The position numbers were made by a program, and so were the translations under genes. A DNA stretch of 59,229 nucleotides from Catajapyx aquilonaris. Taxonomy: Eukaryota. The notes under the pieces were generated by a model that ran no database searches, was not told where the DNA came from, and worked only from the letters and a program-made list of their open reading frames with translations. Below are positions 271-59,229 of the stretch, in pieces (position 1 is the stretch's first letter; every line of letters begins with the position of its first letter). The stretch lies in assembly GCA_000934665.2 (NCBI GenBank), contig KZ538625.1, positions 1 through 59,229 on the forward strand. The letters run 5' to 3'.

Positions 271-1313
271 GGGGACGTCCACATATTACGTAACGGTATT
301 TTTGGCCATTTTTGACCCCCTCCCCCCCCCCCTCTGTAACAGACCGTAACGAACTTCTGAACCTCCCCCCCGTTACGTAACGCCCGCTATTTTTAAAATT
401 TCGTGCTTCGGAACGAGCCCCACGTGTTTCATGTATATAAAACCAAGGCAATAATTTTAAGAATATGTTTACTGTAAAACTAATGTACTTGTGAGAGAAA
501 AGAAAACTTTTGTACCGATACTAAAATTTAATATAGACAGAAATGATCTGTATTTCAGAAGATTTGTTTAAAAAGGCGAAGCCGAGGCGACTCAGGCTAT
601 GAGGCTCTTGGGAGGGTGGGGGGAGGGCGAAAGAAAGGGGGAGGGGAAGATAGTTTTTGGAGTGTGGGAGGAAATTTATAAAGGGAGAACCCCGATATAA
701 AACCCACGCAAGCGCGGAGAGAACTCCATCGAAACTCAACCCATATGGGAAATCCTTGGCCCAATCCGGGGATCGAACCTGGGATCCCAGAGGTGGGAGG
801 AGGCGGACTTTATAATATTAAACCACTACGCCACCGCGTCGCCCGTATTTCAGAAGAAAAACGAAAAAAATTAACGAACTACGTTACGTACAGGTGCGTA
901 TCTTTAAAGCTACACTATGGGCATGTTTTATATAAAAGAGAAAATAGTCAGAACAAAAATGTCATTTTTCTATGAATTTGAGACCCTGGAACAATTGTCA
1001 CGCAATAGGTATGGAATCAACAAGTAGTACAACATGTGACTCACATAAATACCTTCCATAAAAATAGTGAGGTTGTCAAGTTCCTACGAAAAGTCTAATA
1101 AATAGCTTTTTTCGCACGTTTTTTACCGATTCGGACCAGTAGCGGACGACGCAGCCACGCGGGCCACGCTGAGTCGCACTCGGAATATTTTTATACAGTG
1201 CGTTCAAATGCGTTACGTAACGACTACCCAACCACACCCCCCCCCCCATGTAACGGACCGTCACGCTCGCCCAAACCCCCTCCCCCCCTAAATCCCGTTA
1301 CGTAATATGTGGA
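271..1313. mobile_element. PIF/Harbinger-like MITE with a SINE inside; right end clipped
   Basis: TAA|GGGGACGTCCACATATTACGTAACGG at left is inverted by CCGTTACGTAATATGTGGA at right. Subterminal GTTACGTAAC motifs are repeated. Confidence 0.65.
563..844 (-). mobile_element. tRNA-derived SINE family A (V-domain-like body)
   Basis: A/B boxes on the minus strand (GGTTCGATCCC); 13-bp TSD GTATTTCAGAAGA at 550 and 845. Confidence 0.85.
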
Positions 1314-2056
1314 AAGGGGAACCGGATCATTATGCGTATTTTGGCGATACGGTTGCAACCGTATGCTACTCTTCACGACACCCTCGCCGCCTGTCGGCAG
1401 GAATGGGAAATGGGAGCAGGCGCAGCTCTGCCCGCGAATTCAAACCTGAACGTATTCGAACCGTATGCAACTGTTCACGACACCTGCGCCACCTATCGGC
1501 ACTGTGCGCGCTACACTTCTCCGGTTTGCCGCGGGATGGTGTTGAATCGCCCTTCTTAGCAGACGACGTGTGTAGATATATGATTTTCCGTGTTACCGTT
1601 GGACGTAGAAAAAAACCGATTGCACATTCGGAATCAGGATTTTTTGCCCGATTTTTGGGGACCAACTTGTATTTTGAGTGGAGTGTCCCTTTAAACAGTA
1701 GTAATTAAAGGACCACACGACAATGTAGCTACCACATTAATTTAACACTCCTAGCATGTGTTTAACAGTGACATTGGACCATCGGAAATGTGCCATATTT
1801 GCACAATAATTCGATTTTTTGGGGAATTTTTATTTTGCGTTCTAGCTAGGTTGTGCTACTAAGCTACTTCAAGCTGACGTACCCCGGGGCGGAAAGCTGC
1901 TTCTCTAGGCGGCCATGGTCAAGGCTGCCTGGGCTGCGAAATGGTGGTGTCTTCTAGGCTGATCTAAGGTGCGGTGAATCCTGGAGGGTCTGGTAGGTGC
2001 TCCGGGGCGATGCTATAGTGGCCGAAGATGGTGGTCCTCCCCTCGGAGGAGGGAGA

Positions 2057-4030
2057 ATGTAGGGAAAAATGAGATCAGCCAAAGTATAAGTGTGGGATGT
2101 CCATTCATATGTTTTCTGGCATGCACAAGCGAATGAAACCATAATCAAGGCCATAAAACCAACCGTTGACGAGATAAAACCAGGGTCCCCTACATGGTTG
2201 CCTCCCCCACCCTAACCAGGGTATTGTCTTCACATAGTCCTTATGCAATCTAGTTCCAATATGGCCGCCCCATGCTGCAGGATAGGGAATTGGCAAGCGA
2301 TTCGTTTTTGATTTTTTCAATTGTTTTTTTTTTCCTATGCAATTTTCCTATCTGATTTAGTTCCAATATGGCGGAGAGACAATACCCTGTCTAGGTGGGG
2401 GTGGCACTCATGTAGGTGACCCTGGATAAAACAAGTTTCCATTAAATTGTTTCCGGGGAACACAATAACCCAAGCCCTGTCCTGTCCCGCATTACTTTTA
2501 CCGACCTTTACTGACTTTGGCTTCCTGCTGCAAGTCCAACGTGCAGGGGAAATTTCAAAAAACCCTGACAGTATCAAGACATGTGAACAGCTTCGCAGGT
2601 ACAAACATTTTACACTAAAGTTTCACATAACACAGACCACTCCAATTTGCTCCAATCAAGAAAAATTTCTTACGAATGCAGATAATAAGAAACAGTTGAT
2701 CATTATGCTCAGCAATACATTTCGGGACGCTAACATTGAGGTTAGACAGTCATCTGGGAATGCTGACCTACTGATTTTACAGACAGCCATTCAGAAACAC
2801 AGCTGTGCCATTGTGAGTCAAGATACAGACATCCTAGTATGATTGATTCTTGATTGCTTTGGCTCCCTTAGATCGGGAAATATTCTTGCTTAAACCAAAG
2901 ATCGGTCGTACAAAGCAGAAAGTGTTTTCCTCTACAAGCCTCCAGTAACATGTGAACATCAACAAGCACATTCTCCTGGCCCACTATTTCAGTGGTTGTG
3001 ACACAACGAGTGCCATTTATGGAAAAGGGAAGAAGAACGTTATGAAGCTGCTTGAAGCGGAACCTCGATTTGGTCACACCATTGATGTTTTTCGGAAAAG
3101 TACAGCCACCGACAGTGAAGTTAGAAACGCTGGCGAAACTATTTCCTCTACCTCTATGGTTCCAATGATGGGAAACATAAAACTCTTGATGAACTGCGCT
3201 ACTTCATGTTCCAGAGGTCAGTAACCAAAAATGTTGCCAAATTGATGGAACACTTCCTCCCACATCAGCCAGTGCTGCCCAACATTCATATCGTGCATTC
3301 TACCAAGTGCAACTTTGGCAAGGGAATACACTGGATCCACAACAGTGGGGTTGGCTTCATCAAGACAATGATCTGCACCACTCTTGTCTGCACCCAATCA
3401 GAACAACTCTTGACCCTGCCCCCGAGGCCATCCTGAGGTTGATATCTTGTTCCTGCAAAGGAAACTGCTCTAGTTCTTGATGCTCCTGTGTGAAAACCGG
3501 TGTGAAGTGTTCTGCTTTGTGCAAATTTTGTGAAGGAGGGGCCTGCTCGAACAGCTCTATGGATATCCCGACTTCATTAGAATGTGCAGCTATGCTACTG
3601 GAGGACACTGATGGAGACCTAGATTATGGCTATTCACCTTCTGGTAATGAGGATTGCATGTGACATTATTATTCAGGAGCATTTATGTTTTGCTCTCTAA
3701 TTCCTCTTCTTTTTTCATTTGTCTTGTACTTTCAAGATTAAAACTTGTTTTATCTCGTCAACTGTTGGTTTTATCGCATTGATTATGGTTTGATTCACTT
3801 GTGCATGCCAGAAAACATATGAATGGACATCCCACACTTATACTTTGGTTGATCTCATTTTTCCCTACATCCCCCCCCCCCTCCCCAACCNNNNNNNACC
3901 CCCCCCCCCCCCCAATTCATTAGGAACTCATCGGATTCTTGCACTGCATTATCAATAGGAGCTATAACCAAAGTTTCAGGAGGGTACCATTTTTTCCTTA
4001 TTCAAACCAATTTAACATATCTGGTGACTA
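2057..4030 (+). mobile_element. Degenerate Academ(X)-like DNA transposon: XPG-like nuclease plus Cys-cluster remnant between long inverted repeats
   Basis: Broken frames NKKQLI..ADLLI..DTDILV, HYFSGCDTTSAIYGKGK and a C-terminal CSCKGNC..CSCVKTGVKCSALCKFC..C. ~125-bp inverted repeat at 2057-2180/3747-3870; right end ...GGTGACTA. Confidence 0.65.
3891..3897. other. Assembly gap within poly-C
   Basis: Run of N; further Ns at 43569-43592 and 49433. Confidence 0.99.
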
Positions 4031-10826: not shown

Positions 10827-11427
10827 TTAACCTCCATTACAATCACTCCTCATTCACCTTCACTCATATTTATTCACTTCAATCCCCAGCCATAAATTAC
10901 GTAGGAACAACAAATATGCTATAGTCAATGCCACAGTCTTGTATAATAAACAGGTCACGCAATTCCCTCCCCTTTTGCGTGAGCTTTGATGTGCACCGAT
11001 TTGGCTGATTTGGCACTGCCTTCACAGGTCGCTCCACGGAGCATTTGTTCGGGCCATGTTTGGGCGGCTGGTGGACGCGGCTCTGCGAATGTGCTATGGA
11101 CCCAGCTGCATTGGTTTGGGTTGCTTCAGAAGGCGTCCGCCCGAACGCCTAATCCTCCGTGGAGCGACGCCAGCGCCAAATCGAACATTCACGGGGGAAT
11201 GGAACTAAGCTCGCAGCCCTCTGCATAAGGCTGGGGTAGAAGTTGCGGGGGGCTGGTCAATGCACATCCTAGAGAATGTCCTCCCAATTTTCAATTTTAA
11301 TGGAGATGCCCTCATTCAACAGAAGGAGTACATAAGTGTCCTTCTGTTGTCCTCCTTTTGTTGTGTGAGGGCACCTCAATTGAAATTTGAAAAGTGGGAG
11401 GTTCCAGAAGTACATTCTAGTTATCTA

Positions 11428-12212
11428 CGAGGGCCCTTCAATAAAGAATGAGAATGATTTTTTAAATGAGAAAGTAGGGAAGTCCTATCATGAGAGTGAT
11501 ATATTTAAGTACGTCTGTCGAAGATGCATGTGCATGCTTATGCGCAGAAGTCTACTGCTCATTATGTGGGTGTCGTGGCGTCACAAACACCACCACCCTT
11601 GATGTCACCTCCAGAGTCATGGCATCGACATGTGTGAAGCAGTACACCGCGCTAAAATTCTTATTTTTCCTCAAGAAGACAGCCAGTGAGTCGTACTCCA
11701 CACTGACATAGGCATACGGAGAAAATATGCTCAAGAAGAGTCCCGAATCCACCTGTAAACAGGGTGCTCTGGGAGCTCGTGCCAGAGCGTTGACGGAGTT
11801 CTATCTGATTTGTTACAAGTATCTGTTGGTGGTGTGCACACAATTATGCATAACCACCTGCACATGAGGCATGTATCGGCTCAGGCAGGAGCTCCAAAAG
11901 CACCCTGGTTGCAGGTGGATTCAGGACCCTCTGGCAGTACATCTTCTCCATATGCCTATGTCATCATGAAGTAGGCCTCACTGGCCATCTTCTTATACTG
12001 CTCTTCACATGTTAACGGCATGACTCAGGAGGCGATTTCAGGGGGGTACGCGATTGTGTTGACACCACACCCACATGGTGTGCAGTAGACTTCTGTGCAT
12101 AAGCATGCACATCCATCTTCGCCAGTTGTACTTAAATATATAACCATCATGATAGTACCTCCCTACTTTCTCATTTAAAAAATCCCTCTCATTCTTTATT
12201 GAAAGGTCCTCG
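11428..12212. mobile_element. Fold-back element built from two mariner 5' ends
   Basis: TA|CGAGG...CCTCG|TA; arms inverted over ~360 bp. The left arm encodes a mariner N-terminal HTH remnant (KQYTALKFLFFLKKTASESYSTLT*AYGEN). Confidence 0.85.
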
Positions 12213-12866
12213 TAGAATGTCAATTGACTGTACAATGACAAACATATATACACAACTACTCACCAGTAATGCAAGATGAAGAGTAGTCTTGCTCATCACC
12301 TCCTTGCGTCCAAGCAGCAACAATGGCCCTCATTATGCATGCTAATTCGCTTACATCTTCTCCTGAATCTTTGTCCTCTTCCTCAGCCTCCTGCTTAAGG
12401 AACTCAACATCTTCCTCCCCAAATTGTCCTTGGGATTCCCAGAAATCATTGCACGACCGAGGTCGGGTTCTCCAGCATCGGATCACAGCGGGCCAGTTCC
12501 CTTGGGCAGCCAGAGTAGCCAGTGTGGTTGACAAATCCTCTCCAGTCCCTTCTCCATCCCTTACATCTTCTTCAAAGTATCCATCTCCACCACCACCACT
12601 GATGACGCCTTTCAGTTGCTGCATTATTACGGTGGCATCCTCCGAGGCATCTTTTATCTGAAGTGACAAGCATTGCAACTGTAAAATGCCATGTAGGTAA
12701 CCAGCAACAGTGCATGGGCAGGGTGAGCAGGGTCGGGACCTCTTTATGATTGTGACATCTAAACCTTTTTTTAGAGGCACGATTTTTATGCAATTAATGT
12801 GTATTCTCAATGTTTATTAACAAGAACCAAAAAAATTAAATTCTGAGCCCTAACTGCTATAATTAT

Positions 12867-13753: not shown

Positions 13754-14747
13754 CAGGGTGGACGGAAAGTTTCGGACCCCCCCAGGTTTTTTAACCCTAC
13801 TTTTCACAGCGTCTTTTCACATCTTTTAAAAGTCCACAAGCAGTTCTAATGTACACTATCTTTTGAAGCATAATCTTGAGAACATCTGAGCACCTTCGCT
13901 CTCGCAATTCCATTAATAACTTCGCCTCTGTGACTCATCTAAACATCCTATCTGTTTTGCGTTTATTTTGCTTGTTGCCTTGGAGGACACCTGGTCATAT
14001 TCTGCGTCAGATAAGGTTTTTATGACCCTTTTCCATGAGTTCCCCTTCATGCAAATGTTGTGAACTCACTCCTGACCTTATTTTTCGCATTGGTCCATAA
14101 CCTGGTCCAATAAAAATTTGAAAAGGAATGCATGAAATGGCGGACCCAGATGCATTACTTTCGAATTTGTACCATCACATTTGTCTCCATTTTTACTTTC
14201 AAATAATTTTTTGGTGCGAAAGGACGTGAACGAAAGGATGTGTCATGTTGATTAATTTACCAAGGTAGGACTGTTTACTGTCCTTTCCCACCAAAAAATT
14301 ATTTTAAAGTAAAAATGGAGACAAATGTGATGGTACCAATTCGAAAGTAATGCATCCGGGTCCGCCATTTCATGCATTCCTTTTCAAATTTTTATTGGAC
14401 CAGGTTATGGACCAATGCGAAAAATAAGGTCAGGAGTGACTTCACAACATTTGCATGAAGGCGAACTCATGGAAAATGGTCATAAAAACCTTATATGACG
14501 CAGAATATGACCAGGGGTCCTCCAAGGCAACAAGCAAAATAAACGCAAAACAGAGAGGATGTTTAGATGAGTCACAGAGGCGAAGTTATTAATGGAATTG
14601 CAAGCGAAGGTGCTCAGATGTTCTCAAGATTATGCTTCAAAAGATAGTGTACCGGTACATTAGAACTGCTTGTGGATTTTTAAAAGATGAGAAAAGACGC
14701 TGTGAAAGGTAGGGTTAAAAAACCTGGGGGACTTTCCATCCACCCTG
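13754..14747. mobile_element. ~1-kb fold-back Tc1/mariner-type MITE
   Basis: TA|CAGGGTGGA...TCCACCCTG|TA; arms nearly identical over ~460 bp around a ~70-bp loop. Confidence 0.93.
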
Positions 14748-15059: not shown

Positions 15060-15230
15060 AGGGGTTGACAAAGGCTCAATGTATTGCTCCTCTCCAGGCA
15101 GATGGTCCAAAAGAGCAGGCAAAATATAGCCCAAAAACTTGGTATGGCAAAACTTCGTGTTTCAAATGGGTGGATGGAAAGTTTCTACAACAGGCGCAGA
15201 ATTTCGTGGAAAAAAGTGTGTGGTGGACTG
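15060..15230 (+). pseudogene. pogo/Tigger transposase fragment (CENP-B-type HTH)
   Basis: IAQKLGMAKLRVSNGWMESFYNRRRISWKKVCG resembles the F.AS.GWL..FK.RH motif; frameshifted. Confidence 0.7.
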
Positions 15231-15380
15231 ATTTTGCACCCTATTGAAGGTAAGGTGCCATTTTCCTCTCTTTTTCACCGGCAAAAAAACTTAGTAACGT
15301 CCTTAATCTGAATATAGCAGAAACCTGTCCCTTATGGAAAATTTTTAGGGTCTCGTGCGATTCCGTAATACACAGGTTTC

Positions 15381-20313: not shown

Positions 20314-40837
<20,524 letters not shown>

Positions 40838-45048: not shown

Positions 45049-45555
45049 GTCTTTCTCTAATTTTAGACATAGTCATCATACACTTTGGTGCACTTGTCCC
45101 AGCAGGACACTAGTTTTTCCATGCCACTGCAGAAGAAAGTGTTGGGCTGGCTGGGAAGCCAGTGGCAGAAGGCCTCTTTCAATTCCTTGAAGTCACTGAG
45201 GTATTTACAAGTCAGTGCTTCCCTTTTGGTCAGAAGAGATGGTAGACCATGGTTAAGACCATCATTTCGTACCAATGAAGAAGCACCTGGCCAGTCAGCA
45301 CTTCAGCAACATGGAGGAAGTGAAAGAGGCCATCTGCCACTGGTTCTCAGCCAGTCTGATGCTATTTTCTGCAGTGGCATGGAAAAACTAGTGTCCTGTT
45401 GGGACAAGTGCACCAAAGTGCATGGTGACTATGTCTAAAATTATTACAGAAAGACTTGCCCTTTCATATCTACATTTGGGAACATTTCAGTTTGAGTTTC
45501 TCTGGTGAAGATTAGGAACTTCAAGAGTAGTGAATTACTTTTTGATTCGCCCTCG
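45049..45555. mobile_element. Inverted duplication of a mariner 3' end
   Basis: GMEKLVSCWDKCTKV.DDYV/GDYV is encoded on both strands; right mariner terminus TTACTTTTTGATTCGCCCTCG|TA. Confidence 0.85.
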
Positions 45556-49672: not shown

Positions 49673-50226
49673 CAGGGTGTTTCAGAGTCACGGGTCAAGC
49701 GTGTGTGAGGGGGTGGGGAAAAATCCTAGGTGGCTATAACCTTGGTCTGTTTTATAAAACAATTAGAAATATGGCAGTAAACGATTTATTTATTACGGCC
49801 GTATGGAGTGACGTCACATCCTTGCTATTCGAATTGACTGGCGCGGACTTGCAGGTGCAGCATGGGTTGAACGGCTTTTTAGCCTTGCGGGTTGCACTGA
49901 AACAGGCGCTCTCATGCTATGCCGGTAGGGTACTGTACAAAGTAGTGTACTGTGCAGTAGTGTGTACAGTACCCTGCCGGTATAGCAGGAGAGCGCCTTT
50001 TTCAGTGCAACCTGCAAGGCTAAAAAGCCATTCAACCCATGCTGCACCTGCAAGTTTGCGCCAGTCAATTCGAATAGCAAGGATGTGACGTCACACCGTA
50101 CGACCGTAATAAATAAATCGATTACTGCCGTATTTCTAATTGTTTTATAAGACCAGCCGGGGTTGTCGACACCTACCATTTTTCCCCACCCCCTCGCGTG
50201 CTGGACCGTGACTCTGAAACACCCTG
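49673..50226. mobile_element. Near-perfect 554-bp palindromic Tc1/mariner-type MITE
   Basis: TA|CAGGGTGTTTCAGAGTCACGG; arms pair up to a ~25-bp loop near 49950. Confidence 0.92.
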
Positions 50227-55755: not shown

Positions 55756-56298
55756 CAGTAAAACTTCTATAAGTCGAAGAAAATTATGAGCTTGGTTGGT
55801 CACAATGTAAAATAATAGGAAATACACTTCCTTAACTCAGATTTCTATAACTCGAAGTGCAGGCAGGGCCTTACGATGGGATGTTGATGCATTTTCAGTC
55901 TCCCTAAGTTGGCGAGTACAGAAAATTTTTTAATTTCCCAGCCGAAGGGTCGAGAGTAGGCCACATGTACAGAAAGGCTCTTTCCTGATCTCCGTCTGCC
56001 AAAAGAAGTGTTTGACTCGATTGTGACAATTATTGAATCATTTATTAAGAGTCAGAGCCGATCTAAGAGTAGGCAAATGTCCATAACAGAGTTTTTTACA
56101 ACAAAACAATGAGGAACATTGTAGTGTGATAGTGACAGTTACTTTTAAGTTTTGAACATCTTTCTTCGCGGGATATAAAGGTACTCTTCCTTACAGAGTT
56201 ATGTGCTTAAAAAATTCCAAACTTCTCTAACTCGAATCTTCTATAACTCGAAGTTTTTTCCCGGTCCCATGGAGATTCTACTTATAGAAGTTTTACTG
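55756..56298 (+). mobile_element. Tigger/pogo-derived MITE
   Basis: CAGTAAAACTTCTATAAGT TIRs; subterminal CTATAACTCGAA repeats; C-terminal remnant RQMSITEFF. Confidence 0.85.
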
Positions 56299-56532
56299 AA
56301 TGTACTGCAAATTGTGGTTTCTGGTGATAACTTCACGTGAATGACTAAGAGTCCATAGGATATATGGGCTACTCTCCAACAAAAATGTGGGATTGGTAGC
56401 TGAGAAATAATATTACTTCTCCTAGCTTAGCACTTACACTGACGAGAGCTATTTTTGGAAGGATAATATTATACCAGCTCCATTCAAAACCACATGATTT
56501 TTCAACCTCCACTTACAACCATGCCTACATTG

Positions 56533-57298
56533 CACAGTGTGTCCAAACGCGAGAACACTTGGACAAAAATGGTAAAACCAAGTTGGCAGAGTCATGTCAA
56601 ATCTGCCCGAATGTAATAAATTAATGTCTGAACAATAATAAAAAGAACCCTTGGTAGGTTAAATTGAGATGCGTTTTATGCCACGCAGGTACTCAAGTCG
56701 ACTGTTTGCCCGCCACCTTTTTGTGTCTGTTCAGTCGGCTTCGAATGGTCATGGAAGAAAGGTCACTGCATTTCCAAATTCAGGCTCATCCGGATTTTAA
56801 GCTGTGCATAAAATATCTCTGGCTAAGTACTACTTACTCTCATGTAGCAATTTGAATGTGACCTTGAAGTATCGGTGCCAAGCGCTCCTTTCTTGAGGCC
56901 TCCATCACCCGTATTTGTCACGTCAATGATTTGATTTCAAAGACGAAAAGTAACGGCTTTCACAATATTTCACTTCGAATCACACATTAAACGAAAGACT
57001 AGACTTCCTAGTTATAGACTCACTTCGTTTCAATCCCACATAATCCCACATTTTATCCAAAAAGGAGGCAGCATTTGTCATGCTACCCCGACAAAAGTTG
57101 CAATTATGTGCACTTAAAACTAAGTGAATCTATAACAGGGGAGTATAGTCATTCATTTGGTGCGCCATTCAAAGGGAAACTTGTGAAATTCACTACTTTT
57201 CATCTTGAAAATCAGAGGAATATCGTGACCTTCATGACAAATCCGCGCGGAATGGAAGCCATTTTTGTCCAAGCATTTCCGCGTTTGGACACACTGTG
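56533..57298. mobile_element. Transib-type non-autonomous element with RSS-like TIRs
   Basis: 5-bp TSD CATTG (56528-56532 and 57299-57303); 40-bp TIRs beginning CACAGTG; no transposase ORF. Confidence 0.85.
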
Positions 57299-58602
57299 CA
57301 TTGGTATAGTGCAGGTTTGTTGAGTTTCAAATGGCACCACACCTTTGGTACTGTAATGTTGATTTGCTTAGTAGTGACAACAAACAATAGTCATGACGTG
57401 ACGTCATTAGGGACTAATCAAAATCACACTACAGACTGGATCACATGTAACCTACTAAAATCACCCTCGTATCATGTAATCTTTTATGGTAGCATTTGAT
57501 GCTGGTGAAATATCAATTTGGCATGTTCCTTGTGGCAGCTTCATTCTGCTAGTAACTCATTAACTGCATGAACATTTTTCTTGGGAGGAATAGCAACAAG
57601 AATTGGCACATAAGTTGGCACCTGCTTAAACAGCCAATCGAAATGTTGAGTAGCTGGCAGTCACTTGTCAAGTCTGTGGGTTGAAATATTAAGGCAAAAA
57701 TGTGAATATTAAAACCAGTGTCCACATTTTGCATTATAAAATCACCCTATATGTCACTTTGAAAATAATCCAGTCATATAACTCTTACATATCCCATAAT
57801 CTGCTTTGTGTGTTCCTGACCCCCCCCCCCCAAACAAACATTCTACAGATGGTAACAAACTGGCAGGTCAAGTGAGTGGCAGGCAATTCCTTGATTCCAA
57901 AAAGTTGACAATGTATGAATGTGAAAATCATGGAGTGTCACCTTATGAAATAAATGTCAATTAAATTGCATTATTAAATGTCGACACAATCCTTACTGGC
58001 CTAATTTTAAGTGTGGGTTAATGAAAAATGGAGTAATGGCATTAAATAAGATGAAAAGACAGACACACAGAATGTATAAGTAACATCTACTATTGTTACA
58101 CATAAACTGCAGCAAAGCACTGTAATCACAGTGCAAAATAACATTCTCTGTCTTAATGTATGACCAAGAATATTCCTCTAATCACCAGCTGCCCAGTTGA
58201 TTCACTAGTTTGTTACATCTTGAACATGTCAATTGTATACATAACAAATATTACCCAGCCATAACTCATTCCTTAGTTTGTACTTTCCAAATGGCCCCTT
58301 GCCTTCCTCTTGATTCTTCGAAGACCTACCAGTACTGATATGAATTGTTCAGATAACCTTAAGCATTAAAATAATTTCTATTTGTGAGTGATGTTAATAA
58401 TACAGTTAATTTTAAAATCCACTTAATAAAAGTATTCTGAATGGGAAAAATATTACTTTAAATGTGGCATTGATGGTTGACAGGGCTCATTCTTCTCGTC
58501 CACTAGCACCAAGAAATAAATGTTTCTCTCTTGTCCTAGTGAGTTTCTTATCACAGACAATGTGAGGTGTCCTCACAAAAAAAAGACCTGAATTTAAGAC
58601 AT

Positions 58603-58976
58603 TTAAAAATATGGGTCCCGTTCTCGGTCCATGGGTATTTGGCCATTCAATAGCACATGACTATTTCTCTTAATAGTTGCTGTCTCAAAGTCCTTGCTGA
58701 ACATAGCAGGTGTTTCCTTTGAGGAAGAGTCCATGGCACTGTTGTTCTTCTTGGCAGTCAGTGTTGGCACAGACACATAGGAATTTTGTTTTGGCTTCGT
58801 TGTGATATAATGAGGACTGCTAGGAATTTCAGGCTTCCTCTTCTTAAATATGTAATACATTATTCCAGAAGAGGCCAGTGCACCTACAATAAAAGCACAC
58901 ACAGTGGCTCCAATAATGATTCCAATCAGGTGCTGGTTGTCATTGCCGTTGGTGAGTGCCAGTGAATTCAGGTTGT
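58603..58976 (-). CDS. Sema5c: Last coding exon (TM helix + cytoplasmic tail) of a single-pass membrane protein, probably class-5 semaphorin; gene continues beyond the window
   Basis: CTTCCAG acceptor at 58978-58977; hydrophobic LIGIIIGATVCAFIVGALASSGIMYYIF followed by KKRK. Tail motifs IPSSPHYIT.K.QNSYVSVP and DFETATIKRNSH are recalled from arthropod Semaphorin-5, not searched. Confidence 0.72.
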
Positions 58977-59229
58977 CTGGAAGACAAGAGTATTGTCATG
59001 TGAAAGTTCCTATAGAGTAGTGCCACATCAGACTCTAAAATTGTGACCTTATTTCTAGACTGAGTTTCACATTATTTATTTTCTTTCAAAATTAATTTCA
59101 GTATGTTGCATTGCCTGGGTACTCTTTAATTTAGCAAAAAGATTGGCATACTTTCTTTTGTTTTTCTGTGTTTATGTCTTGGCTATCCTGGCGCTGCCAG
59201 GTTACCGTGGTTGTTTATTTTGCGAGTTT

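What the first reader, a model, noticed from the sequence alone, without database searches (positions are those of the whole stretch)
56533..57298. Transposon whose two ends both mimic a V(D)J 23-RSS (heptamer + 23 bp + nonamer)
Seen: left end CACAGTG-TGTCCAAACGCGAGAACACTTGG-ACAAAAATG; right end (reverse complement) CACAGTG-TGTCCAAACGCGGAAATGCTTGG-ACAAAAATG. Both spacers are exactly 23 nt, mismatches are confined to the spacer, and the element has a perfect 5-bp TSD (CATTG). Known: the RSS consensus is CACAGTG-12/23-ACAAAAACC, RAG and Transib transposition makes 5-bp TSDs, and Transib is the proposed RAG1 ancestor with RSS-like TIRs. Inference: a non-autonomous Transib/RAG-like family with a symmetric 23/23 architecture (perfect heptamer, 7/9 nonamer), implying a cognate transposase elsewhere in the genome.
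Basis: partly seen in the sequence, partly recalled or inferred. Interest (0 to 1): 0.75.

Follow-up and report, generated by a model that had tools for sequence, protein, structure and literature searches.

The report
Ordinary non-autonomous Transib transposon copy
This is a 766-base, non-coding, many-copy DNA transposon of the well-known Transib superfamily, whose ends look like V(D)J recombination signals because that is how Transib ends normally look.

Summary
At 56533-57298 lies a 766-bp element with 40-bp terminal inverted repeats (36 of 40 identical). Each reads CACAGTG + 23 nt + ACAAAAATG, and all 4 mismatches lie in the spacer. CATTG flanks it on both sides. Chance does not give this. 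Public contigs of the same organism show a multi-copy family: summed depth is about 40-150 times that of the unique flanks, and likeness stops within about 2 bases of the proposed ends.

The Transib reading is supported. The ends share blocks with published Transib ends: GTCC[A/G]AACG and TTGG[A/C]CAAAA with TransibN1_DP, and ACAAAAAT with Hopper. CA-N-TG 5-bp duplications are a published Transib target preference (CAWTG, CASTG, CARTG).

The claimed novelty is not supported. Kapitonov and Jurka (2005) already gave the Transib consensus end as CACAATG-23-AAAAAAATC and wrote that most families are RSS23-like. Families with a perfect CACAGTG are in their supplement.

Not shown: paired 5-bp duplications in other copies, and the cognate transposase. 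No genome was held, and the window has none detectable.

Verdict: a new member of a known kind, low interest.

The parts
56528..56532 (.). left copy of the 5-bp target-site duplication, CATTG
   Evidence: Identical to 57299-57303. It fits the CAWTG target preference published for TransibN2_AG. Other copies read TG, preceded by a consensus CAA, at this place (table 7).
56533..56572 (+). left 40-bp terminal inverted repeat: heptamer CACAGTG 56533-56539, 23-nt spacer 56540-56562, nonamer-like ACAAAAATG 56563-56571
   Evidence: 36 of 40 identical to the reverse complement of 57259-57298. Contigs of other copies begin to align at 56531 (tables 7 and 8).
56573..57258 (.). non-coding interior, 41% G+C over the whole element, including an imperfect internal palindrome at 56932-57214
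   Evidence: No reading frame longer than 101 aa. 0 of 6 internal or overlapping frames match Pfam at E up to 1. The palindrome is 69% alike over 291 aligned nt. Other copies carry rearranged or replaced interiors (joints, table 5).
57259..57298 (-). right 40-bp terminal inverted repeat: heptamer 57292-57298, 23-nt spacer 57269-57291, nonamer-like 57260-57268 (read on the - strand)
   Evidence: By my interpolation in bin 57291-57336, the multi-copy depth falls back to the single-copy level at about 57297-57300 (table 2).
57299..57303 (.). right copy of the 5-bp target-site duplication, CATTG
   Evidence: 5 of 5 identical to 56528-56532.

Best explanation
The element at 56533-57298 is one copy of a moderately old, multi-copy, non-autonomous (MITE-like) transposon family of the Transib superfamily, in what is probably an arthropod genome. 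It encodes nothing. A Transib transposase, the RAG1-core-like DDE enzyme, encoded by an autonomous relative elsewhere or formerly in the genome, would move it. Inferred steps: the enzyme binds the two 40-bp ends and cuts exactly at the outer C of each CACAGTG by the nick-hairpin route. It then inserts the excised element with a 5-bp stagger into a CA-W-TG target, which duplicates CATTG. The RSS likeness (heptamer, 23-nt spacer, A-rich nonamer) is the ordinary layout of Transib ends, from which RSSs are thought to descend. It is not mimicry and not a new architecture. Shown here: the anatomy, the multi-copy state, the position of the family's boundaries and the likeness of the ends to published Transib ends. 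Inferred: the transposase, the cleavage chemistry and the target preference in this family.
For: Anatomy: a 36/40 TIR, 23-nt spacers and a 5/5 flank repeat, beyond chance.

Family: in Logan contigs of three runs of one sample and one run of a second sample, depth rises from about 16-28 in the flanks to about 440-3700 in the element in X1-X3, and from 6.8 to as much as 109 in X5. Nine to ten contigs per run in X1 and X3, and 3 in X5, start to align at 56531 with unlike sequence before it (agreement 0.47-0.57). Listed pieces are about 84-97% like this copy.

Conservation of the ends: of the 40 best-supported differences from other copies that were listed, 0 lie in the 80 nt of the two ends; about 4 would be expected if they were spread evenly. 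A further 132 rows were not shown (table 3).

Published Transib ends (PMC1131882 Fig S4, read; compared by eye):
- TransibN1_DP is CACTATG-GTCCGAACGACCACTTTTGTTGG-CCAAAACCT. It has the same 23-nt spacing. Its block GTCCGAACG matches ours, GTCCAAACG, at 8 of 9 with a 1-nt offset. Its block TTGGCCAAAA matches ours, TTGGACAAAA, at 9 of 10 in register.
- Hopper has ACAAAAATT, against ours ACAAAAATG.
- TransibN3_AG and Transib-N1_SP begin with CACAGTG.

TSD: the paper states 5-bp TSDs for the superfamily and targets cCASTGg and cCAWTGc for TransibN1_AG and N2_AG. Fig S4a and S4b list copies flanked by CAATG, CATTG, CAGTG and CACTG, and one TransibN1_DP copy has CATTG. Nozomi/Hopper is reported with a 5-bp CARTG TSD (bioRxiv 10.64898/2026.08.26.747230, passages).

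Mechanism: nick-hairpin cleavage and invariably 5-bp TSDs for Hztransib are as cited in PMC4840297 (passages).

Host: the Furry gene exon is nearest to arthropod clusters in the Atlas (a lead only), and arthropods are the main Transib hosts.
Against: No second copy could be read with both flanks, so the 5-bp TSD rests on 1 of 1 copy. In other copies only the left junction was seen, and mostly as a consensus.

The flanking CA-A/T-TG recurs at other copies' left ends. That could equally mean that these 5 bases belong to the element, so that the heptamer is subterminal. For this copy that reading needs an A-to-T change at 56530 and leaves no TSD.

No transposase was found. None of the 150 translations scanned, out of 189 frames of at least 70 aa in the window, hits a RAG1 or transposase family above threshold. 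This is weak evidence either way, since the 2026 preprint reports that a true Transib transposase gave no conserved-domain hits.

Published Transib targets are usually GC-rich; CATTG is not.

The comparison with published ends was made by eye, not scored.
Confidence: 0.87

Rival explanations
1. The true ends lie 5 bases further out (CAWTGCACAGTG...), giving a 45-bp TIR. CACAGTG would then be subterminal, CATTG/CATTG would not be a target duplication, and the element would belong to another or an undescribed superfamily.
For: The repeat finder extends the arms over CATTG (45 nt, 89%). Other copies align from 56531 (TG), and the consensus just before it is CAA in X1, X3 and X5. One X5 contig reads CAATG directly before a shortened end (table 7).
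Against: A palindromic CA-N-TG target gives exactly this picture in the published TransibN1_AG and N2_AG alignments. In this copy the two flanks are direct repeats, CATTG and CATTG, where an inverted pair would read CAATG and CATTG. One X5 contig aligned from 56527, so it also matches CATTG on the left. Outside the 5 bases there is no repeat: CCTA against GTAT.
Confidence: 0.05
2. A non-autonomous RAG-like (RAGL) element, moved by a RAG1L/RAG2L pair rather than by a Transib transposase.
For: It starts with CAC and has a 5-bp TSD. A CAAACG block lies near the heptamer, recalling the CAAACK of the protostome RAGL TIR consensus CACTWMCAAACKTYKBB (PMC7204232, passages). A heptamer-conserved block-spacer-nonamer layout is described for PflRAGL-A (bioRxiv 10.1101/2023.08.20.553239, passages).
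Against: In register, only 6 of 17 positions fit the protostome RAGL consensus (by eye), and the CAAAC block is 5 nt out of place. The nearest published ends are Drosophila Transib families. In the passages read, RAGL is reported in deuterostomes, molluscs, nemerteans, cnidarians and protists, not in arthropods. PflRAGL-A ends differ in length by 10 bp; these ends are symmetric.
Confidence: 0.04
3. A member of the CMC (CACTA/Mirage/Chapaev) group, which is related to Transib and also has ends starting with CAC.
For: The ends start with CAC. The 2026 preprint shows that TSD length varies even among Transib relatives.
Against: With the ends at CAC...GTG, 2-, 3- and 4-bp flank repeats fail (TG/CA, TTG/CAT, ATTG/CATT) while 5 bp is perfect. 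The block likeness is to Transib ends.
Confidence: 0.02
4. Not a mobile element: a chance or structural inverted repeat.
For: None beyond the lack of an observed empty site.
Against: It is multi-copy, with sharp boundaries at the repeat ends. A 36/40 TIR with a 5/5 flank repeat did not arise in 100 simulations.
Confidence: 0.01

Closest known systems
TransibN1_DP (non-autonomous Transib of Drosophila pseudoobscura; Kapitonov & Jurka 2005, Fig S4d)
   Same: A CAC..TG heptamer, a 23-nt spacer, the block GTCC[A/G]AACG next to the heptamer, the block TTGG[A/C]CAAAA at positions 27-36, symmetric ends and a 5-bp TSD. One listed copy is flanked by CATTG.
   Different: The heptamer is CACTATG, not CACAGTG. 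The first block is offset by 1 nt, and the middle of the spacer is unlike. Interiors were not compared (not printed), and the host differs.
Hopper/Kodama with its autonomous partner Nozomi (Drosophila melanogaster Transib)
   Same: Nonamer-like ACAAAAATT against ACAAAAATG here (8 of 9). It has a 5-bp CA-R-TG TSD and is a non-coding derivative amplified in trans.
   Different: The heptamer is CACTATG, the spacer is T-rich, the TIR is 37 bp and the element is about 1.4 kb. Its Table S2 was not seen (preprint supplements are closed).
TransibN1_AG / TransibN2_AG (Anopheles gambiae)
   Same: A strong CASTG / CAWTG target preference, with copies flanked by CATTG and CAATG.
   Different: Their two ends are RSS12-like and RSS23-like; here both are 23.
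TransibN3_AG and Transib-N1_SP
   Same: A perfect CACAGTG heptamer on a non-autonomous Transib. Transib-N1_SP has symmetric ends with CCAAAA from position 31.
   Different: The spacer sequences differ, and the N1_SP TSDs are GC-rich (CGGCG, CGACG).
V(D)J 23-RSS (CACAGTG-23-ACAAAAACC)
   Same: Heptamer 7 of 7, spacer 23, nonamer 7 of 9, including the A run.
   Different: It is a transposon end, not next to any antigen-receptor segment. Both ends are 23, whereas RAG recombination needs a 12/23 pair. The likely host is an arthropod.
RAGL / ProtoRAG TIRs
   Same: A CAC start, a 5-bp TSD and an A-rich block near the heptamer.
   Different: RAGL-B ends lack an A-rich nonamer. Only 6 of 17 positions fit the protostome consensus in register (by eye).

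Membership tests
Transib superfamily | 5-bp target-site duplication | tested here: met
   CATTG on both sides, 5 of 5, for this one copy. Other copies were seen only at the left junction: TG preceded by a consensus CAA, and one contig matching CATTG. That is consistent, but the paired flanks were not seen.
Transib superfamily | Ends begin with CAC, with a CACAATG-like heptamer | tested here: met
   CACAGTG at both ends. The same heptamer occurs in published TransibN3_AG and Transib-N1_SP.
Transib superfamily | About 23-nt variable spacer followed by an A-rich nonamer (consensus AAAAAAATC) | tested here: met
   A 23-nt spacer at both ends. ACAAAAATG matches AAAAAAATC at 7 of 9 and ACAAAAACC at 7 of 9.
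Transib superfamily | Likeness of the ends to those of established families | tested here: met
   Blocks are shared with TransibN1_DP, TransibN1_DM and Hopper. Compared by eye, not scored.
Transib superfamily | Repeat family whose homology stops at the TIR ends | tested here: met
   There is a depth step, and loose ends at 56531. By interpolation the right limit is about 57297-57300.
Transib superfamily | Transib-type (RAG1-core-like DDE) transposase carried by an autonomous copy with the same ends | not testable with these tools
   No genome is held. None is detectable in the window: 150 of 189 frames of at least 70 aa were scanned. Pfam may miss such proteins.
Transib superfamily | GC-rich target sites (usual, not universal) | tested here: not met
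   CATTG is 40% G+C. Published exceptions exist with CAWTG or CARTG targets.
CMC (CACTA/Mirage/Chapaev) | 2-4-bp TSD | tested here: not met
   The 2-, 3- and 4-bp flanks do not repeat (TG/CA, TTG/CAT, ATTG/CATT); only 5 bp does.
RAGL transposons | TIR fits the RAGL consensus (protostome CACTWMCAAACKTYKBB), with a RAG1L-RAG2L pair in autonomous copies | tested here: not met
   6 of 17 positions fit in register (by eye). The gene pair is not testable.
V(D)J recombination signal sequence | Flanks a V, D or J gene segment and is paired 12/23 | tested here: not met
   Both ends are 23. Frames across the flanks (56400-56621, 57209-57496) have no Pfam match. The ends bound a repeat family.

The most novel reading that the evidence does not exclude
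The ends of this family combine a perfect RSS heptamer, exact 23-nt spacing, an RSS-grade nonamer and a conserved CCAAACG block beside the heptamer. That is the heptamer-TR2-spacer-nonamer layout so far described only for the 'missing link' RAGL-A ends. If a RAG1L/RAG2L-type enzyme moved it in an arthropod, or if its cognate Transib enzyme truly read the nonamer through a GRPR/K-type nonamer-binding domain, it would extend the RAG-like lineage or nonamer recognition to a clade where neither is reported.
Probability: 0.04. Interest if true: 0.55.

Novelty: new member of a known kind. Interest (0 to 1): 0.15.

Why it matters
It matters little beyond annotation. It adds one more non-autonomous Transib family, with unusually RSS-like ends and a CAWTG-type target, to a superfamily whose RSS-like ends, 5-bp TSDs and link to RAG1 have been in print since 2005. 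It could serve as a natural 23/23 substrate for comparing Transib and RAG end recognition. It also marks the genome as one in which an autonomous Transib is worth looking for.

Tried and rejected
Genome-wide copies, TSD tables and a transposase search were therefore impossible.
- Earlier notes of this scan: nothing by sequence or by place.
- Metagenome scan with the first 17 nt of the end: 21 loci. In 20 of 21 the likeness stops after 17-27 nt, which is chance.
- L007 shows 39 nt at 79% likeness but has no inverted mate in its 2081 nt. It lies inside a minus-strand frame that, from recall, looks like the tail of a non-LTR retrotransposon ORF. There is only a faint RVT_1 match nearby (E 0.045, 13.9 bits against a cutoff of 29.6), so I rejected it as a family member without proof. 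The rest of that contig could not be reached.
- Pattern scans of genome contigs and viral contigs with both conserved blocks of the end: 0 and 0.
- Literature search for the 12-mer CACAGTGTGTCC: 4 papers, all on mouse or human topics by title. Repbase and Dfam could not be consulted.
- Frames inside or overlapping the element: 0 of 6 have Pfam matches at E up to 1.
- Hairpin TGTCCAA-N12-TTGGACA inside each end: z -1.1 on the left (30 of 200 shuffles fold as well) and z -2.7 on the right (3 of 200). Not convincing as a structure.
- A second CAC...GTG pair at 45081-45420 (29 of 30) lies inside longer 100-nt arms (45058-45157 and 45344-45443) and has no flank repeat. It is not Transib-like.
- No contig skipping the whole element (an empty site) was listed, in either sample (table 5).
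- The organism was not pursued beyond an Atlas lead to arthropods.

Full report
WHAT IS THERE

CATTG (56528-56532) precedes CACAGTG (56533-56539). A 23-nt spacer (56540-56562) and ACAAAAATG (56563-56571) follow. The right end mirrors this: CATTTTTGT at 57260-57268, a 23-nt spacer at 57269-57291 and CACTGTG at 57292-57298, followed by CATTG (57299-57303).

The two 40-nt ends agree at 36 of 40 positions. The four mismatches are at TIR positions 20, 21, 24 and 25, inside the spacer, and likeness ends after position 40. The repeat finder reports 45-nt arms at 89%, because CATTG is almost its own reverse complement. That point matters below.

The element is 766 bp and 41% G+C. Its longest frame is 101 aa, and 0 of 6 internal or overlapping frames match Pfam at E up to 1.

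IS IT MORE THAN CHANCE?

- The first 19 nt of the end, with up to 3 mismatches allowed, occur only at the two ends. 0.00 are expected from 100 shuffles.
- A loose RSS-23 pattern with up to 2 mismatches gives 4 matches against 1.04 expected, and 3 of 100 shuffles reach 4. The only two perfect matches are these ends.
- My scan for CACNNTG...CANNGTG pairs with at least 21 of 30 TIR identity found 2 pairs, against a mean of 0.09 in 100 Markov simulations. With at least 4 of 5 flank identity it found 1, against none in 100 simulations.
- The other pair (45081-45420) sits inside longer arms and has no flank repeat.

IS IT A REPEAT FAMILY?

No genome is held for this window. I therefore laid Logan contigs of four public runs on 56233-57598 at 80% likeness or more. 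Three runs are of one sample and one is of a second sample and study.

- Depth: summed contig depth is 22-27 just left of the element and 16-28 to its right in X1-X3, and about 440-3700 inside it. In X5 it is 6.8 on the left and up to 109 inside; X5 does not cover the right flank. The tool warns that this is not a copy number. I take it only as showing many copies, of the order of tens to a hundred or more.
- Left limit: 10 (X1), 9 (X3) and 3 (X5) contigs begin to align at 56531, with unlike sequence before it (agreement 0.47-0.57).
- Right limit: the right-end loose ends were not among the rows shown. Interpolating the depth in bin 57291-57336 puts the right limit at about 57297-57300.
- Age: listed pieces differ from this copy by about 3-16%.
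- Interior: several joints show copies with replaced or rearranged interiors but the same ends (table 5). That is usual for non-autonomous families.
- Ends: of the 40 best-supported differences listed, 0 fall in the 80 nt of the two ends, where about 4 would be expected if they were spread evenly. A further 132 rows were not shown. Both ends of this copy therefore look like the family majority, and the left/right spacer difference is probably a family trait rather than decay.
- No contig skipping the element was listed. A contig of the second sample bridges the left junction without a difference, so the insertion is shared.

WHAT IS IT?

Kapitonov and Jurka 2005 (PMC1131882; passages; supplementary Fig S4 read) make three relevant statements:

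- Transib is the only eukaryotic DNA transposon superfamily with 5-bp TSDs.
- Its 38-bp consensus end is CACAATG, a variable 23-bp spacer and AAAAAAATC.

Their Fig S4 gives ends that can be set beside ours. I compared them by eye:

- TransibN1_DP is CACTATG-GTCCGAACGACCACTTTTGTTGG-CCAAAACCT. It has the same 23-nt spacing. GTCCGAACG matches our GTCCAAACG at 8 of 9, offset by 1 nt. TTGGCCAAAA matches our TTGGACAAAA at 9 of 10, in register at positions 27-36.
- TransibN1_DM has CTGGCCAAAA at the same place.
- Hopper has ACAAAAATT where ours has ACAAAAATG.
- TransibN3_AG and Transib-N1_SP start with a perfect CACAGTG.

Across families the heptamer and the block that includes the nonamer-like run are kept while the middle of the spacer is not.

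THE FLANKING CATTG

Other copies align two bases beyond the heptamer (TG), and the consensus before that is CAA. One X5 contig aligned from 56527, so it matches CATTG. Another reads CAATG before an end that is 2 nt shorter (table 7). Two readings fit.

- (A) A 5-bp TSD at a preferred palindromic target, CA-W-TG.
- (B) The 5 bases belong to the element.

I prefer A, for three reasons. This copy has a direct repeat (CATTG and CATTG) where B predicts an inverted pair (CAATG and CATTG). B also leaves no duplication outside the 5 bases (CCTA against GTAT). Finally, the same picture is in print for Transib. The paper states that TransibN1_AG and N2_AG integrate at cCASTGg and cCAWTGc. Fig S4a and S4b list copy after copy flanked by CAATG, CATTG, CAGTG or CACTG, one TransibN1_DP copy is flanked by CATTG, and a 2026 preprint reports a 5-bp CARTG TSD for Nozomi/Hopper (passages; its Table S2 was not seen).

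B is not excluded, because I could not read both flanks of a second copy.

HOW IT MOST LIKELY WORKS

The element carries no gene, so a Transib transposase supplied in trans must move it. From the literature, not from this window: Hztransib cleaves by a nick-hairpin route like RAG and makes invariably 5-bp TSDs (PMC4840297, passages, citing Hencken et al. 2012, which I did not read).

The two conserved blocks of the end are the likely protein-binding parts, and the heptamer edge is the cleavage site. This is inference.

The short inverted repeat inside each end (TGTCCAA-N12-TTGGACA) is not convincingly more stable than shuffles (z -1.1 and -2.7).

WHAT COULD NOT BE SHOWN

No transposase was found. 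150 of the 189 frames of at least 70 aa in the window were scanned against Pfam. The only clear matches are exons of a Furry/Fry gene on the minus strand. The one transposon-related match is sub-threshold: HTH_Tnp_Tc5 at 15069-15308. This negative result is weak, because the 2026 preprint notes that a genuine Transib transposase gave no conserved-domain hit.

Scans of public collections gave no further copy. The one look-alike, L007, appears to be coding sequence of an unrelated retroelement.

The host is probably an arthropod, by an Atlas lead only.

COMPARISON AND NOVELTY

It works like, and by every testable feature is, a non-autonomous Transib:

- It is not an RSS. It lies next to no receptor segment, both ends are 23, and it bounds a repeat family.
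- It does not fit CMC, because 2-4-bp flanks do not repeat.
- It does not fit the RAGL TIR consensus in register, at 6 of 17 positions.

The exact 12-mer of the end is in no paper of the searched library in a relevant context. Repbase and Dfam could not be consulted, so the family may already have a name.

I file it as a new member of a known kind, with low interest. The remaining bold reading is a RAGL-type or nonamer-reading enzyme in an arthropod. I put it at about 4%.

Noticed in passing
window 56219-56298: A very abundant mini-repeat just left of the element. Contig depth is about 134,000-171,000 in 56233-56278, against about 25 for unique sequence. It holds 18-nt inverted arms at 56235-56252 and 56276-56293. 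The motif AAACTTCTATAACTCGAA recurs 5 times in 55761-56293 with up to 3 mismatches, against 0.09 expected. It looks like a tiny MITE or SINE-like unit with thousands of copies.
   Followed up: partly
window 56932-57214: An imperfect palindrome, 69% alike over 291 aligned nt, lies inside the Transib element. A related 19-nt motif lies outside the element at 56138-56156 (pair I2). Other copies show opposite-strand joints here (table 5). It may be a nested foldback element or a family-specific hairpin.
   Followed up: partly
window 20317-40849, minus strand: Exons of a Furry/Fry (MOR2-PAG1) gene with very long exons. MOR2-PAG1_N has E 4e-105 at 34381-37053. MOR2-PAG1_C and Fry_C lie at 23412-27164. 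The nearest Atlas clusters are arthropod.
   Followed up: partly
window 13901-14604, 49707-50195, 38478-39047, 11424-12216: Several long, close inverted repeats (arms of 221-325 nt, 82-97% complementary) suggest foldback or MITE-like elements. 66 inverted pairs of at least 25 nt were found within 8 kb.
   Followed up: no
window 15069-15308 (+): A sub-threshold match to the Tc5/pogo transposase DNA-binding domain (HTH_Tnp_Tc5, E 0.0013, 19.1 bits against a cutoff of 22.2). Probably a decayed pogo-like remnant.
   Followed up: no
window 58606-58995 (-): A sub-threshold match to the insulin-receptor transmembrane segment (Insulin_TMD, E 2e-05, 25 bits against a cutoff of 33.4). Possibly an exon of a receptor tyrosine kinase gene near the window's end.
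   Followed up: no
L007 865-910: A metagenome contig carries CACAGTGTGTCCAAACG followed, after a 14-nt gap, by CTTGGACAATGG, which looks like the element's end. It lies in a minus-strand frame of what seems to be a decayed retroelement and has no inverted mate. Probably coincidence.
   Followed up: yes
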